From: Podarcis gaigeae
Taxonomy: Eukaryota
Assembly: GCA_964106915.2 (NCBI GenBank)
Contig: OZ066923.1
Direction: 5' to 3' (one strand)
Length of the DNA: 64,000 nt
Shown: positions 24,001 to 45,000 of the stretch, in pieces
Numbering within the stretch: position 1 is the first letter of the stretch
Layout: every line of letters begins with the position of its first letter
Made by a program: the position numbers

Positions 24001-27000
24001 TGAAATCAGGAATTTATGTCTGCATGGTGAAGCACAATGGCCTTATAGCTGGGTGTGGGTGACCTTATAGCTGGGGGAAAGGGCATCATTTAATGCTCTG
24101 CTTCAGGCGGCAAAAGGTTTTGGGCTAGCTCAGTCATGAATGAAGGCCTTAGTGCAACGTAAGTAGATACAATATATACTCACTCGTAAGAAAAAGGGAA
24201 ATTTTTTCCCATAGAATCCAACTCGGAAAAACTCTGGCTCCAAACGTTGTTGATCCATAATTTTATCATACAAAGAAGCTTCCATCACCTGAGTAAGATC
24301 AGATTGAAAATAAACAAATCAGATAAGCAATATCAATAGCTAAAATGCAAGCAAGGTAAACGAGAGTTCCCCAGCCCACATAAAGATGCTTGAATGTATC
24401 TTTCAGCTTGTGCTTATCCGCATTGGCTCAATATACATCTGGATTTGTATAGACAGGAGGACAAATTGAACATGAGGGGTAGCACAGTGTTTGTAGAATT
24501 AACAAAAGTGTTACTTAACGATTGTGGTTTAGTGTTCAGAGATTCATCAGTCTAAATATAATCAATGTGGAAGGCAGCATTGTACTGCAGTTTAAAAAAT
24601 AAATTAGAGTAGAAATAGAAACCAGTACTGAAGTCGATGGTGCTTGGCAAATGCGAAGCATAATCCTGCCTCAACCTGGCACAATGTTTCTTGGCTTGAA
24701 TGGGCCTGATTCGTGTCTTCTCTTGCCAGGATTTTAAGTACATTACTTAAGAGTTTGGGCATGGCCAGTAGGTGAAATAAGTCCCATTGAGTTCAGAAGA
24801 GCTCAGGTAAGTATATATAGGATTGCAATCTCAATATAGTACAGGAACTACACTGCAATTGCATACAATTTGAACCATTTGTAAATGGCTTTAAAATAAC
24901 ATAGAAGTGTGAGGGTCTCTGCTTTCCTTTTTTGCAGCAATCTGACCCAGGCAAACATGTATGTTAGAATAACAAATGTAGCTAGAACAGGGATTGCTGG
25001 GTTGTAAGAACCTGTTGTAAAAAAAGATTAAGTCAAAACAAAACAAAACAAAACATGAGCATCACAGTTTCAGCATGAAAGTTTCAATGGGAAAAATTAA
25101 ATTGCTGCCTTGCTGACTAAACAAAAGCCAGTTTTATACTGATTCTTAATGGCCAAATACATCTATCTCCATTACCCGCATCTTGCTGAGGTTTCTGTAG
25201 TCGTAATAGCTTTCATACTGCTCAGCGATCTTCCTGCATAAGATAATGCCATTCTCCCAGCACTGTAGACAAGCAAGAGAAAAGGAATGTTTGGCAAATA
25301 GAAGGCTCTTAAACGCTTTTTAGTTGTTTCAAACAGAGTTTCAAGTGTCCCAGTTGGCAGTACAATCTAGCATTAACCAGCGCTTTCAGAGAACATTAAC
25401 CAACAGGCAGAAAACAGCTGCTTATGAGAACTGACAATATGGTATTATAAAGCCTCTTCCTTTTTGGGATAGGTGAACTGCACTCACACTTGTCGTACAA
25501 AATAAACCTGAATCATCCCTGTTCATCTACCATGCATCAAAATCCATGGCAAAAGAAGCGTCTGGTCACATGACAGCAGCAGTCAAGAATCAATTCCACA
25601 GCAGCGTTCCTAGAATAGGAACTTTGGGGGGGGGGGGTAAGGTTCTTTTTCGGTTTCAATTCCACAGCACTATTATTCAAATAGGAACTTTTAGGGTTCT
25701 TAAAATCTAGGTCTGTTAAACTTGAGTTCTGCAATTACTGCCAGTGCTAGCTGTGGGAGAGAACTGTGAGTACGTACGTACATTACTATTCAGCCAATGG
25801 CTTGGTTCACACACCACATTAAACCATAGCTTAAAATAAACTATGGTTTAACTCACAATACTGCTTTTCCAGGGGCGCCGACTTATAAAAAATATTGGGG
25901 GGGCCCATACCGGGGTCCTGCCCCGGGACGTTTTCTAAATTTTAGATGAAAATTAGTGAGTTTTAAAGTTTTTTTAAAGTATTTTAGAGTCATATGATCA
26001 ACATTAGAACCCCGAAAACTCGACTCTCTATAACTCCACACTCCGGGAAACTCGACAAGCCTGAAACACTTTTTGGCTTTGAAAAAAGAAACAAAACATA
26101 AACAAGCACGGTATTTTCGTAAAAAGCTAATTTAATTTACAGTAACAATTATGCTTATAGACTATTACAGAGCAGTGAATATATAGCTCTGAAAAGACTG
26201 AAATGATATTTAAATAAATCCTAAACTATCATTAAAAGAATAAAACATAAAATATTGCTGTCGCACAGTAATAGCACTTTGATTAATAAGTGAAATAGCT
26301 AATTTAAGCTTACTTTGAATAAGGCTGAGGGTTCATTAAATAAAAATAATATCTCAAAGTTAATGCTTTAATACAGTTAATAAAGTTAATACAGTATGCC
26401 TAATACTGTATGTAAATACTGTAATACTGTATGTAAATAACGGGCTTTAATTGGGTCTTACACCCTAAAAATATTTAAGTATTTGAAAATAACTAATACA
26501 GTACTATAGTAATATAGAAATACAGTACTAAACTAGTACTAATATTTCAAAACTGAAAAATTAACATTCTGTATGTATTTAATTCTCTATTTTATAAAGA
26601 TTTTTAATATCTGACAGTGAGTTTGGAGTAGCCCAATGCAAAAATCCTGAGGATCCATGTGGATCCGTGCTTTGTAACCATGTTTTTGCACCACTGTGAC
26701 CCTAGGCAACAGTGGGTGCGTGATTTTTTTGGTGCAAGATGTAGCCATGGACATGCTATGTGATCTGATGGTGAATCTGGGGTGACCCAATGCAAAAATC
26801 CTGAGGATCCATGTGGATCCGTGCTTTGTAACCACGTTTTTGCACCATTGTGGCCCCAGGCCACAGTGGGTGCGTGATTTTTTTAGTGCAGGCTGTAGCC
26901 ATGGACATGCTATGTTATCTGATGGTGAATTTGGGGTGACCCAGTGCAAAGATCCTGTGGATCCATGCTTTGTAACCACGTTTTTGCACCATTGCAGCCC

Positions 27001-42000: not shown

Positions 42001-45000
42001 AGCTTAAATTAGCTATTTCACTTATTAATCAAAGTGCTATTACTGTGCGACAGCAATATTTTATGTTTTATTCTTTTAATGATAGTTTAGGATTTATTTA
42101 AATATCATTTCAGTCTTTTCAGAGCTATATATTCACTGCTCTGTAATAGTCTATAAGCATAATTGTTACTGTAAATTAAATTAGCTTTTTACGAAAATAC
42201 CGTGCGTGTTTTTGTTTTGTTTCTTTTTTCAAAGCCAAAAAGTGTTTCAGGCTTGTCGAGTTTCCCGGAGTGTGGAGTTATAGAGTCGAGTTTTCGGGGT
42301 TCTAATGTTGATCATATGACTCTAAAATACTTTTAAAAAACTTTAAAACTCACTAATTTTCATCTAAAATTTAGAAAACTTCCCGGGGCAGGACCCCGGT
42401 ATGGGCCCCCCCAATATTTTTTGTAAGTCGGCGCCCCTGGTCTAACCTACTGTACAATAGTAAATTCGACATTTGTTGCTCCACATATTTTTTGCCTCTG
42501 ACTCTGGCCACCACTGGCACATGTCATCCGTAAGGTTGCTGAAACAAGAATTCATCCATTGGGCTGAGAAAGATTCCCCACCCATGCCTTACAACAGGGT
42601 TTTCCAAACTTGGGTTTCCAGCTGCTTTTGGACTGCAATTCCCACCATCCCTGAACACTAGTCCTGCTAGCTAAGGATGATGGGAGTTGTAGTCCAAAAA
42701 CATCTGGATATCCATGTTTGGGAAACCCAGCCCCAGAAGGATACACTGCAGCTTCCATCCTAAATCATCTCTCTTTTTTGTCCAAGCTAGTGGAGCTATG
42801 ATACTAAACAATGGGTCCATGGGCAAGAGTTTGTTCTACCCCTGTCAACTGGAAGACCTAAGTGGTAAGAACAGATCCTCTCCTCCTCTGTAAAGCATCA
42901 TATACATGCACTAGCTTTGTTTGTTTGTTTAATAATAATATAAATCCCACCATATATACCCAAGCATCTTTCTGAATCTACACTGTAAATCTTTAATAAC
43001 CTGGCTATCTTGTGAAATTGAAAGCAAGGACAACAAATATGGTTCAGATCGTCCTCTTTCAAGGGTATGGAGTGAGCTGTTCTGTGGGAGGGAGGGAAGA
43101 AGTTTGGAGAAAAGGGGAAACTCAATGTATCTCCTTTTGTGCATTATTTAATGAAAATCAATAAAAAATATTGTTATAAAAATGCAAAACCAAAGGGGGG
43201 GGAGGATATGGAGTGAGACTTCCCACAGTCTAGAATTAGAAAGGGGACTGGAATTTCAAGATGATCCTGTGTTTAGGTTCTGGCAATGAAAATTTCATGC
43301 ATGGCCTCATCTAAAAACACACGCAGCCCAGCCCTAAGCATGTTGGCATGGAAGTAAGTCCCACTGAGCTGAACAATGCTCGCTCACAAGTGAATGTTAT
43401 AGGTAGGAAGAATGCAGCCAATCTTTCTGTGCTCAGTCCCCGCAGTAGAAAGGAGTTATGGTGCAGGGTAGCGATTTGATTCTTGCCTTTGCCATATACC
43501 CTCAAGGGGGCCTTAGGCAAGCCTGATTCCTGCTCACCCCATCCCTCAATCTGCAACAAGGATGTGATGCACAGGGCCACTGCAAAGATTACAACTATAT
43601 AAAGAACAAATGCGCAGCCAGAGATCTTTTGCATTTCTTTGAGAGCAGGCCTTGCAAAGCAAGGTGAGCTGCAATATGCTATTCACCACTCACCCAATGC
43701 CTGGAACTGCTATCAAACTAAACAGACCACCTGCAAGACTGGTACCACCAAAGGAAAAGCTGGACAGATGTGGACACTTCCTTTCTTTGGATTCAAGTGA
43801 TCCGTGGCTTACATGAAAAATTTAGACTAGCGCTACCTGCCTCCTACATCTTTCGTCTGCTCTGTCTAGTTGCCATCGTGTTTTCAGGCCACAGATGGCC
43901 TCTCTCTATGCCAAATGTGCAGAACCTAAGACAATTCGTCCTCGATTCTTGGCTGTGTCTGTTGCCACAGCTCCTACAGATGTCAAAAGTGAGGAGGGGG
44001 TTGCAATGCATCCCATCAGAAGATGCGCAGTAAGACCCAACCTGACACTGGCAATATGCCTGATGTAATACCATCAGACCTAGTGCACAGCTGAGGTGCA
44101 CATTAGTGCGACATGAGACTGATTTGCACTAGCATAAGAGTCATTCTTAGAGCTGATCTACATATGCAGAACCACAATGTTCTACTAATGTTCTGTGATT
44201 TATTTATTTTTTGGGGGGAGAACCTTTTACATAGAAACCTATTGTGTCAGGAAGGTGGTGAGAACTCTTCTTCCTGGCACATAAGCTTTCGACAGGCAAG
44301 AATAATTTTGTGTGGGTGGGGTGGGGTGGGGGAGGCAATCAAACATGTGGCTCACCCCCTTGTACCCTACATTGAATTATGAACTCCTGAAAACTTGGTA
44401 TCTGATGTTGTGTGTGTGCTTTCATATTCTAGCTAATGATAATTTTCTCGAAGGAATGCTGGCACCAGACTTTCAGACCATGGCATATTTCTTGCTATAA
44501 ATCATGCAGCAATTGCTCACCTGTAGTCCAGCAGTCTCTCCATAAGACGGGTTACAGTGGCGATTAATGAAACGCCACTTTCTCTCCATGTTTCGCGTTC
44601 AATTTTCTTCAGCAAGCTGGAAGGAATGAACCCAGGGCAAAATATCAGCATTTATTTTTACCGGTCTCCATAACAACCAATTTATACTCAAAGGTACCCA
44701 AAAATGCCTTAGCAGTATCTGCTCATTCACAGATTTTATTATTATTATTATTATTTCCTTCAAACTAAGCACAATTGCAAATATTCTCTTACCTGGGATA
44801 AGGACCAAAGAGTGGAATTCTACTCCAGGAAGCATTGACAAGGCAAATTGAATTTTTTTTAGGTTAGCCAACTTCAAGACAACACACACACAGAGAGAGA
44901 AAGCATCCTATTTTCCAAATATATCTAGACATCTCACAACCTTTACACACAGAAGATTCTGGATTTATTGCATGCTCACCCCTTTGTGCTATTCATTAGA

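What the first reader, a model, noticed from the sequence alone, without database searches (positions are those of the whole stretch)
25870..42439. Two young 1.8-1.9 kb hAT elements in inverted orientation bracket three DOCK4 exons
Seen: copies at 25870-27782 and 40637-42439 are near-identical reverse complements with different TSDs, so they are independent insertions. They lie about 2.3 kb and 2.1 kb outside exons 38453-38513, 33526-33619 and 30085-30233 (304 nt in total). Known: intronic reverse-complementary repeats promote back-splicing and ADAR editing. Inference: the pre-mRNA can form a kb-scale duplex yielding a lineage-specific 304-nt circRNA and/or a frameshifting skip near the start of DHR-2. 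The pair is also a substrate for inversion or alternative transposition, and the proximity suggests local hopping.
[Added by the scan's program, not by the reader: the finding's places include an assembly gap (unread letters, written N; its length is only estimated) at 30980 to 31115. Whether the letters on both sides are continuous or in frame is not known: test that first.]
Basis: partly seen in the sequence, partly recalled or inferred. Interest (0 to 1): 0.7.

Follow-up and report, generated by a model that had tools for sequence, protein, structure and literature searches.

The report
Inverted transposon pair around DOCK4 exons
Two nearly identical copies of a non-coding DNA transposon sit in opposite orientation in two introns of a lizard DOCK4 gene, an arrangement known to favour circular RNA, but nothing available here shows that it does so at this locus.

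Summary
Copy A (25870-27782) and copy B (40637-42439, opposite strand) match at 1732 of 1767 aligned positions (98.0%) and differ by six length differences. Each has its own perfect 8-bp target duplication and 14-nt terminal inverted repeats. Neither copy has a coding remnant. They are therefore independent insertions of a non-autonomous, hAT-type element. They lie in two introns of a squamate (not human) DOCK4 gene on the minus strand, 2123 nt upstream and 2302 nt downstream of three consecutive exons of 61, 94 and 149 nt (304 nt in total). These exons encode the start of DHR-2 lobe A. The assembly gap is purely intronic, and orthologue residues run on across it. The pair is by far the strongest reverse-complementary match in the window, and neither copy has a partner within its own intron. 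A 304-nt circle, A-to-I editing and a frameshifting skip are therefore mechanistically plausible. None of these could be tested, because no RNA data or related genomes were available. The mechanism, young transposon pairs producing lineage-specific circles, is already well described. Verdict: a real, ordinary new example of a known kind. Local hopping and alternative transposition cannot be judged.

The parts
25870..27782 (+). Copy A of the non-autonomous hAT-type element (1913 nt). It lies in the DOCK4 intron 25263-30084.
   Evidence: None of 26 open segments of at least 35 aa had a Pfam match below E = 0.09.
25862..25869 (.). Target-site duplication of copy A, left copy (8 bp)
   Evidence: Read directly. 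Identical to 27783-27790.
27783..27790 (.). Target-site duplication of copy A, right copy (8 bp)
25870..25883 (+). Terminal inverted repeat of copy A, first end (14 nt). 12 of 14 positions are complementary to the other end at 27769-27782.
27769..27782 (+). Terminal inverted repeat of copy A, second end (14 nt)
26609..27138 (+). Internal tandem array of copy A, period 154 nt, 3.5 units
40637..42439 (-). Copy B of the same element (1803 nt), in opposite orientation. It lies in the DOCK4 intron 38514-44520.
40629..40636 (.). Target-site duplication of copy B (8 bp)
   Evidence: Identical to 42440-42447.
42440..42447 (.). Target-site duplication of copy B (8 bp)
41289..41674 (-). Internal tandem array of copy B, period 154 nt, 2.5 units (one unit fewer than copy A)
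44521..44616 (-). DOCK4 exon upstream of the bracketed block (96 nt)
   Evidence: tblastn of named orthologues. AG/GT bounds read.
38453..38513 (-). Bracketed DOCK4 exon a (61 nt). Its acceptor at 38513 would be the back-splice acceptor.
   Evidence: 21 of 21 residues identical to Podarcis muralis and Pogona vitticeps DOCK4. No PDB match.
33526..33619 (-). Bracketed DOCK4 exon b (94 nt)
   Evidence: Matches DOCK2 residues 1209-1238, which are residues 18-47 of the DHR-2 crystal construct 3b13_A, E 1.3e-5 to 1.5e-5.
30980..31115 (.). Assembly gap (136 N) inside the intron between exons b and c
   Evidence: Orthologue residues are continuous across it. The flanks do not overlap.
30085..30233 (-). 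Bracketed DOCK4 exon c (149 nt). Its donor at 30085 would be the back-splice donor.
   Evidence: 100% identical to DOCK4 of Podarcis muralis and Euleptes europaea. Matches DOCK5 residues 1266-1318, E 3.4e-5.
25176..25262 (-). DOCK4 exon downstream of the bracketed block (87 nt), 607 nt from copy A

Best explanation
Shown: two copies of one family of a non-coding (non-autonomous) cut-and-paste DNA transposon, most likely of the hAT superfamily, inserted independently and fairly recently into two introns of DOCK4 in a squamate reptile. They are in opposite orientation and enclose three consecutive constitutive exons (304 nt) that encode the linker and the first ~85 residues of DHR-2 lobe A. Inferred: both copies are transcribed within the DOCK4 pre-mRNA, so the two arms can pair into a duplex of about 1.74 kb. 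That pairing would bring the donor of exon c (30085) next to the acceptor of exon a (38513). In a minority of transcripts this would give a 304-nt three-exon circular RNA and/or a linear mRNA lacking the three exons. The skipped mRNA is frameshifted and, followed exon by exon, meets a stop early in the second exon downstream, so it should be degraded. The duplex would also be a substrate for A-to-I editing and for helicases that oppose circle formation. I take these products to be low-level by-products of transposon insertion rather than a selected function.
For: The copies, ends and target duplications are. There is no coding capacity: the longest ORF is 168 aa, none of 26 open segments of copy A had a Pfam match below E = 0.09, and the longest open segment has one weak unnamed database hit. 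Gene identity and exon map: 21 colinear minus-strand HSPs to a named 1959-aa DOCK4. Exon c is 100% identical to lizard DOCK4. The Pfam DHR-2 lobe A match begins at residue 1183 of that orthologue, and exons a-c cover about residues 1166-1268. Exons b and c map to residues 18-47 and 49-101 of a DOCK2 DHR-2 crystal construct. Pairing: the pair gives the two top-scoring inverted matches of the window (1652 and 1400 bits against 508 for the next). It accounts for 6 of 23 inverted HSP pairs, and neither copy has a partner inside its own intron. The predicted inter-arm duplex has 1741 pairs at -3296.5 kcal/mol, against -575.0 and -600.4 kcal/mol for each arm folded alone. The longest perfect runs are 214, 208 and 112 nt. 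The back-splice sites are canonical and look strong: a long pyrimidine tract before 38513 and GTAAGT after 30085. Literature: base pairing of inverted intronic repeats is necessary and sufficient in plasmid assays (PMC4201285, PMC4617980; abstracts and passages). Circle-flanking introns are enriched in young, species-specific transposon dimers, and the circles are read as by-products (PMC8516420; abstract and passages). Opposite-orientation intronic Alus pair, are edited, and shift a constitutive exon to alternative (PMC2533698; abstract).
Against: There is no RNA evidence of any kind for this locus. [quoted passage not shown] Many exons flanked by complementary repeats do not circularise (PMC4617980). 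DHX9 unwinds such duplexes and ADARs act in both directions (PMC8938519). The arms are 2.1-2.3 kb from the splice sites and at least 12.9 kb apart, with two internal introns. The upstream intron may therefore often be spliced out before the downstream arm is transcribed (my inference). The hAT assignment rests only on duplication length and termini. One end starts CAG and the other CAT, so the recalled terminal motif is met at one end only. Weaker inverted pairs (247-357 nt, 84-86%) link neighbouring introns and could compete. The upstream arm, as transcribed, carries 4 AATAAA motifs, which allows a different effect (premature 3' end formation).
Confidence: 0.6

Rival explanations
1. Inert passengers. 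The two copies are neutral intronic insertions with no measurable effect on DOCK4 RNA. The upstream intron is removed co-transcriptionally before the downstream arm exists, or helicases and editing keep the duplex from forming, so only linear mRNA is made.
For: The arms are 12854 nt apart as assembled and 2.1-2.3 kb from the relevant splice sites. Many repeat-flanked exons do not circularise (PMC4617980). Stronger hairpins can inhibit circle formation (PMC4201285). DHX9 and ADAR oppose pairing (PMC8938519). DOCK4 exons a-c are present in every named full-length orthologue compared.
Against: This is the strongest complementary pair in the window and has no within-intron competitor. The thermodynamic advantage of inter-arm pairing over self-folding is very large. 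Long repeats (~400 nt) promoted co-transcriptional circularisation in flies (PMC4617980).
Confidence: 0.35
2. The two copies are related by a local hop: one copy is the direct parent of the other, and transposition went to a linked site, as is known for some hAT elements.
For: The only two copies in 64 kb lie 12.9 kb apart. Preference of Ac/Ds-type elements for linked sites is recalled knowledge and was not checked here.
Against: hAT elements as a class fill 2.3% of a lacertid genome (PMC9498476, passage), so neighbouring copies need no special explanation. The copies differ by 2% and by six length differences, which is equally expected for two members drawn from a family. No other family members could be compared.
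Confidence: 0.2
3. The element belongs to another superfamily that also makes 8-bp duplications (for example P-like), not hAT.
For: There is no transposase remnant. One terminus departs from the recalled hAT terminal motif.
Against: The 8-bp duplications are perfect at both copies and the terminal inverted repeats are short at 14 nt. hAT is the dominant DNA-transposon class reported in a lacertid genome.
Confidence: 0.08
4. Assembly artefact: the inverted pair, or the orientation of the segment between the copies, is a mis-assembly around the gap.
For: A gap lies inside the bracketed segment. Long inverted repeats are a known source of orientation errors (general knowledge).
Against: The copies differ by 35 substitutions and six length differences and have different flanks and target duplications. 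Exons on both sides of the gap keep the strand, order and phase of the gene.
Confidence: 0.03

Closest known systems
Inverted Alu pairs flanking circularising exons in primates (e.g. ZKSCAN1, HIPK3, EPHB4; Liang and Wilusz 2014, PMC4201285)
   Same: Both have reverse-complementary transposon copies in the two introns around internal exons with canonical splice sites. Pairing is expected to bring donor and acceptor together.
   Different: The arms here are about 1.8 kb at 98% identity rather than ~300-nt SINEs at lower identity. They derive from a DNA transposon, lie 2.1-2.3 kb from the splice sites, and no circle has been observed.
Drosophila laccase2 and PlexA circles flanked by inverted DNAREP1_DM transposons (Kramer et al. 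2015, PMC4617980)
   Same: Inverted transposon copies drive circle formation outside mammals, and those repeats are not conserved in most related species.
   Different: The fly repeats are 69-75% identical over 106-272 nt and lie very close to a single exon. Here there are three exons, far longer and more similar arms, and no experimental support.
Young, species-specific transposon dimers in circRNA-flanking introns of mammals (Gruhl et al. 2021, PMC8516420)
   Same: A recently inserted, lineage-restricted transposon pair is the predicted driver, and the expected outcome is a young, probably non-functional circle.
   Different: That study covers five mammals and mostly SINEs. This is a single unverified locus in a squamate with a DNA transposon.
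Opposite-orientation intronic Alus that change exon usage (Lev-Maor et al. 2008, PMC2533698)
   Same: Pairing of inverted intronic repeats, shown by editing, shifts an exon from constitutive to alternative.
   Different: There the two Alus lie in one intron upstream of the affected exon. Here the arms lie in different introns and enclose three exons.
Non-autonomous hAT elements of lizard genomes (hAT = 2.3% of the Darevskia valentini assembly, often in introns; PMC9498476)
   Same: Both have 8-bp target duplications, short terminal inverted repeats, an intronic location and a squamate host.
   Different: The family name and the autonomous partner were not established. At 1.8-1.9 kb with an internal 154-nt tandem array, this element is larger than a typical miniature element.

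Membership tests
hAT superfamily (non-autonomous member) | 8-bp target-site duplication | tested here: met
   Perfect 8 of 8 duplications at both copies, with different sequences.
hAT superfamily (non-autonomous member) | Short terminal inverted repeats with the superfamily's terminal motif (motif recalled, not from a call) | tested here: inconclusive
   The repeats are 14 nt with 12 of 14 positions complementary. The recalled five-base motif is met at one end and at 4 of 5 positions at the other.
hAT superfamily (non-autonomous member) | An autonomous relative with the same termini that encodes a hAT transposase (dimerisation domain) | not testable with these tools
   No eukaryotic genome or repeat library was available. 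The copies themselves had no Pfam match below E = 0.09 in any of 26 open segments. Copy B's 27 segments were not scanned.
Repeat-driven circular-RNA locus | Reverse-complementary sequences in the two introns that flank the circularised exons | tested here: met
Repeat-driven circular-RNA locus | Pairing across the exons stronger than pairing within each intron | tested here: met
   Neither copy has an inverted partner within its own intron. The next inverted pair in the window scores 508 bits against 1652 and 1400. Anything hidden in the gap is unknown.
Repeat-driven circular-RNA locus | Canonical acceptor and donor at the back-splice exons | tested here: met
   AG before 38513 and GT after 30085.
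Repeat-driven circular-RNA locus | Observed back-splice junction, RNase R resistant | not testable with these tools
   No RNA data for this organism were available.
DOCK4 orthologue | Best matches are proteins named DOCK4, colinear over many exons | tested here: met
   Exon c is 100% identical to named lizard DOCK4, and the named hits among the 120 listed are almost all called DOCK4. 21 colinear HSPs cover residues about 1055-1920. Podarcis muralis is identical at 592 of 624 positions over 15 HSPs.
DOCK4 orthologue | The bracketed exons lie at the start of DHR-2 | tested here: met
   Pfam DHR-2 lobe A starts at residue 1183 of the orthologue. Exons b and c match residues 18-47 and 49-101 of a DOCK2 DHR-2 construct. 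The single-exon peptides alone gave 0 Pfam families, and exon a gave no PDB match.

The most novel reading that the evidence does not exclude
The 1.74-kb, 98% complementary duplex is formed in most DOCK4 pre-mRNAs of this lizard lineage and has a real dosage effect. It would divert a sizeable share of transcription of an essential Rac-GEF gene into a lineage-specific 304-nt circle and a degraded skipped mRNA. It would also create one of the longest natural intramolecular dsRNA substrates for editing, or for small-RNA production, in a vertebrate housekeeping-type gene. This would make the locus a natural test of how kb-scale perfect repeats are tolerated. Alternatively, an inversion allele between the copies could be segregating as a DOCK4 null.
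Probability: 0.1. Interest if true: 0.55.

Novelty: new member of a known kind. Interest (0 to 1): 0.25.

Why it matters
If the circle exists, this locus would extend to squamates, and to a long DNA transposon, the rule that young inverted transposon pairs create lineage-specific circular RNAs. It would also be a natural case for asking how unusually long, near-perfect intronic duplexes are handled by editing, unwinding and splicing kinetics. As it stands, the locus is a correctly described but ordinary configuration. Any transposon-rich vertebrate genome is expected to hold many such pairs.

Tried and rejected
1. Pfam on the three single-exon peptides gave 0 families each at E up to 10, because they are too short. 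Identity was settled instead through PDB sequence matches, a protein search with exon c and tblastn with named orthologues. Exon a alone has no PDB match.

2. I looked for coding remnants in the element. No ORF exceeds 168 aa. None of 26 open segments of copy A had a Pfam match below E = 0.09. The longest open segment (179 aa) found one weak unnamed hit at E 5.1e-4, which I did not fetch. Copy B's 27 open segments were not scanned.

3. Rfam at gathering thresholds and tRNA scans of the whole window gave 0 and 0.

4. I tried to locate the virus-like stretch named by the operators. Pfam on 78 ORFs of at least 85 aa, and on 150 of the 185 open segments of at least 75 aa, found no reverse transcriptase, integrase, capsid or envelope domain. 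The 35 segments left out lie in the two copies or overlap DOCK4 exons. The only mobile-element domain found was a Tc1/mariner-type DDE_3 fragment. Short or decayed remnants would escape this scan. I treated the two transposon copies as the stretch meant and only described them.

5. I rejected a segmental inverted duplication or assembly duplication, because the flanks and target duplications differ.

6. I rejected a hidden exon in the gap. The gap flanks have no end overlap of 12 nt or more.

7. Literature on circular RNA in lizards: 29 papers held at least 3 of my 4 terms, and none of the 10 listed concerns circle biogenesis in a squamate. For a DOCK4 circle, 1 paper was found: a rat table row with no exon detail.

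
Full report
OBSERVATION. The repeat finder returned 12 inverted pairs that tile 25869-27782 against 40637-42440. 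I aligned copy A (25870-27782, 1913 nt) with the reverse complement of copy B (40637-42439, 1803 nt). The alignment gave 1732 matches and 35 mismatches (98.0%; 22 transitions, 13 transversions, 7 of the transitions in CpG context). There were six length differences of 2, 28, 144, 1, 6 and 1 nt, and the 144-nt one is a unit of an internal tandem array. Read directly, each copy ends in a 14-nt terminal inverted repeat with 12 of 14 positions complementary. Each copy is flanked by a perfect 8-bp direct repeat: TGCTTTTC for A, and GGTTAGAC (minus-strand reading) for B. Similarity stops exactly at the ends. Copy A matches nothing else in the window: all 14 blastn HSPs fall inside the two copies. 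This is a repeated mobile element, not a chance match. The different duplications and unrelated flanks show two separate insertions rather than a duplicated segment or an assembly duplicate.

THE GAP. The 136 N at 30980-31115 lie in the intron between the second and third bracketed exon. That is 746 nt from the acceptor of the third exon and 2410 nt from the donor of the second. No reading frame crosses the gap. Named DOCK4 orthologues align to the exons on both sides with no residues missing, and with the same strand, order and phase. So the two sides are consistent with one continuous gene, and no exon known from orthologues is lost in the gap. The flanks do not overlap. What the gap leaves open is the true arm-to-arm distance (12854 nt as assembled) and whether another repeat sits inside it. 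I did not try to fill it.

THE GENE AND THE HOST. The three exons are on the minus strand, bounded by AG and GT, and are 61, 94 and 149 nt long (304 in total) with compatible phases. I searched them exon by exon. The joined step, searching a spliced model, was left out.
- Exon c is 100% identical to DOCK4 of Podarcis muralis and Euleptes europaea (438 of 439 candidates had E <= 0.001 and 120 were listed). It also matches DOCK5 residues 1266-1318.
- Exon b matches DOCK2 residues 1209-1238.
- Exon a has no PDB match, but is identical at 21 of 21 residues to two named lizard DOCK4 proteins.
- Pfam on the single peptides found nothing.

tblastn of a named 1959-aa orthologue gave 21 colinear minus-strand HSPs covering residues about 1055-1920. 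Pfam places the start of DHR-2 lobe A at residue 1183 of that orthologue. The exons cover about residues 1166-1268, so 'near the start of DHR-2' is right. Among 13 named orthologues, Podarcis muralis scored best (592 of 624 identical over 15 HSPs). Lerista had 485 of 508 over 12 HSPs, and Monodelphis 577 of 627. I take the window for a squamate reptile, not for human. No named human protein was among the 120 listed hits. From recalled knowledge, DNA transposons 98% alike are not a feature of the human genome.

POSITION. Copy B lies in the 6007-nt intron upstream of exon a, 2123 nt from the acceptor at 38513 and 2081 nt from the upstream exon (44521-44616). Copy A lies in the 4822-nt intron downstream of exon c, 2302 nt from the donor at 30085 and 607 nt from the next exon (25176-25262).

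THE ELEMENT. From one end, copy A has a terminal repeat and G/C-rich subterminal palindromes, then about 0.7 kb of A/T-rich sequence. Next comes a 154-nt tandem array (3.5 units in A, 2.5 in B), then a purine- and G/C-rich 0.45 kb, then further subterminal palindromes and the other terminal repeat. Nothing in it codes. The longest ORF is 168 aa, and none of 26 open segments had a Pfam match below E = 0.09. The longest open segment found one weak unnamed protein. Rfam and tRNA scans were empty. An 8-bp duplication with short terminal repeats is what defines hAT insertions. hAT is also the main DNA-transposon class reported for a lacertid genome, at 2.3% of the assembly and often intronic (PMC9498476, passages). 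I therefore accept 'non-autonomous hAT-type'. The decisive feature, an autonomous relative with the same ends and a hAT transposase, could not be tested. The K2P distance of 0.0201 corresponds to about 5-20 million years for assumed rates of 2e-9 to 0.5e-9 per site per year. The rates are my assumption. 'Young' is fair in a relative sense.

WHAT THE PAIR COULD DO AT THE RNA LEVEL (INFERENCE). Both copies are inside the DOCK4 transcription unit. In a self-comparison of the window, the pair provides 6 of 23 inverted HSP pairs and the two best scores (1652 and 1400 bits; the next is 508). Neither copy has an inverted partner within its own intron. Three weaker pairs (247-357 nt, 84-86%) connect neighbouring introns and would bracket other exon sets. 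RNAduplex predicts 1741 inter-arm pairs at -3296.5 kcal/mol, against -575.0 and -600.4 kcal/mol for the arms folded alone. Perfect runs reach 214 and 208 nt. The would-be back-splice sites are canonical. So the conditions of the known mechanism are met for a 304-nt circle of exons a-c. Because 304 is not a multiple of three, a linear mRNA lacking the block is frameshifted. I followed the shifted frame exon by exon by eye, making no joined sequence. The 87-nt downstream exon stays open, and a stop appears at the second codon of the next exon, far from the last junction, so decay is expected.

Against a strong effect:
- The arms are over 2 kb from the splice sites and about 13 kb apart, so the upstream intron may often be removed first. 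This is my inference.
- Stronger hairpins can inhibit circle formation, and not all repeats work (PMC4201285).
- Many repeat-flanked exons do not circularise (PMC4617980).
- DHX9 and ADARs modulate such duplexes in both directions (PMC8938519).

COMPARISON WITH WHAT IS KNOWN. The mechanism is textbook for inverted Alus (PMC4201285) and has been shown for inverted transposons in flies (PMC4617980). The evolutionary pattern is described for five mammals: young, species-specific transposon dimers around circles, read as by-products (PMC8516420). Opposite-orientation intronic Alus that pair and are edited can make a constitutive exon alternative (PMC2533698, abstract). What is particular here is the host (a squamate), the element type (a DNA transposon) and the arm length and identity, which are about six times an Alu at 98%. 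For all these papers I saw abstracts and the passages returned by term searches, not whole texts. Zhang 2014, Jeck 2013, Ivanov 2015 and the DHX9 study are known to me only as citations inside those passages or from recall.

DNA-LEVEL CLAIMS. Recombination between 1.8-kb inverted repeats with 200-nt perfect tracts could invert the 12.9-kb block and disrupt DOCK4. This is general knowledge, and nothing in the window speaks for or against such an allele. Whether the ends could take part in aberrant transposition depends on an active transposase, which I could not assess. Tests of that kind lie outside what this report may propose, and long-read allele surveys are the descriptive substitute. 'Local hopping' cannot be told from two independent arrivals without the other family members.

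LIMITS. I had no RNA data, no eukaryotic genomes and no repeat library. Pfam scans of 78 ORFs and of 150 of 185 open segments found no viral-type domain, so I could not place a virus-like stretch other than the transposons. Supplementary files of the cited papers were not opened and do not bear on the claims made.

VERDICT. This is a real and cleanly delimited inverted pair of a non-autonomous hAT-type element around three DOCK4 exons. It is a plausible but unproven source of a lineage-specific circle, editing and rare skipping. It is a new member of a known kind, of modest interest (0.25).

Noticed in passing
window 12399-12689 (+): An open segment with a Tc1/mariner-type DDE_3 transposase fragment (E 5.2e-11, profile positions 80-135 of 146), in the DOCK4 intron between the exons at about 12255-12377 and 14071-14163. 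It is a decayed remnant and the only mobile-element protein domain found in the window.
   Followed up: partly
window 29210-29287, 37617-37863, 49388-49633: A SINE-like repeat family (77-86% alike; name not tested). The copies at 37617-37863 and 49388-49633 are inverted and would bracket two exons (44521-44616 and exon a), giving a weaker competing pairing.
   Followed up: no
window 9043-9471, 21530-21691, 32201-32598, 46954-47492, 52531-52912: A repeat family of about 400 nt (78-88% alike) present in both orientations in several DOCK4 introns. The pair 32202-32554 with 52562-912 is inverted and brackets three exons.
   Followed up: no
window 5801-6155, 9580-9907, 39434-39804, 50862-51220, 60541-60871: A second repeat family of about 350 nt (74-86% alike) in both orientations. 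One member lies in the same intron as copy B.
   Followed up: no
window 48457-48715 and 49816-49961: Two blocks of about 75 nt are repeated 1.2-1.4 kb apart (85-95% alike), but in swapped order. Next to them is a 300-nt G+C peak (0.637 at 48100-48399) inside a DOCK4 intron. The nearby open segments (up to 177 aa) have no Pfam match. This is unexplained.
   Followed up: partly
window 7444-7683 (-): The DOCK4 C-terminal exon here is only about 60% identical to the gecko and agamid orthologues, while the other exons are 80-100% identical. It overlaps in the query with the next HSP and is probably the variable proline-rich tail.
   Followed up: no
window 26609-27138 and 41289-41674: The internal 154-nt tandem array differs by one unit between the two copies. 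This allows out-of-register pairing between the arms, and it is the largest difference between them.
   Followed up: partly
window 25590-25630 and 25656-25696: A 41-nt direct repeat (78% alike) lies just outside copy A, between it and the downstream exon. It is possibly part of another small repeat.
   Followed up: no
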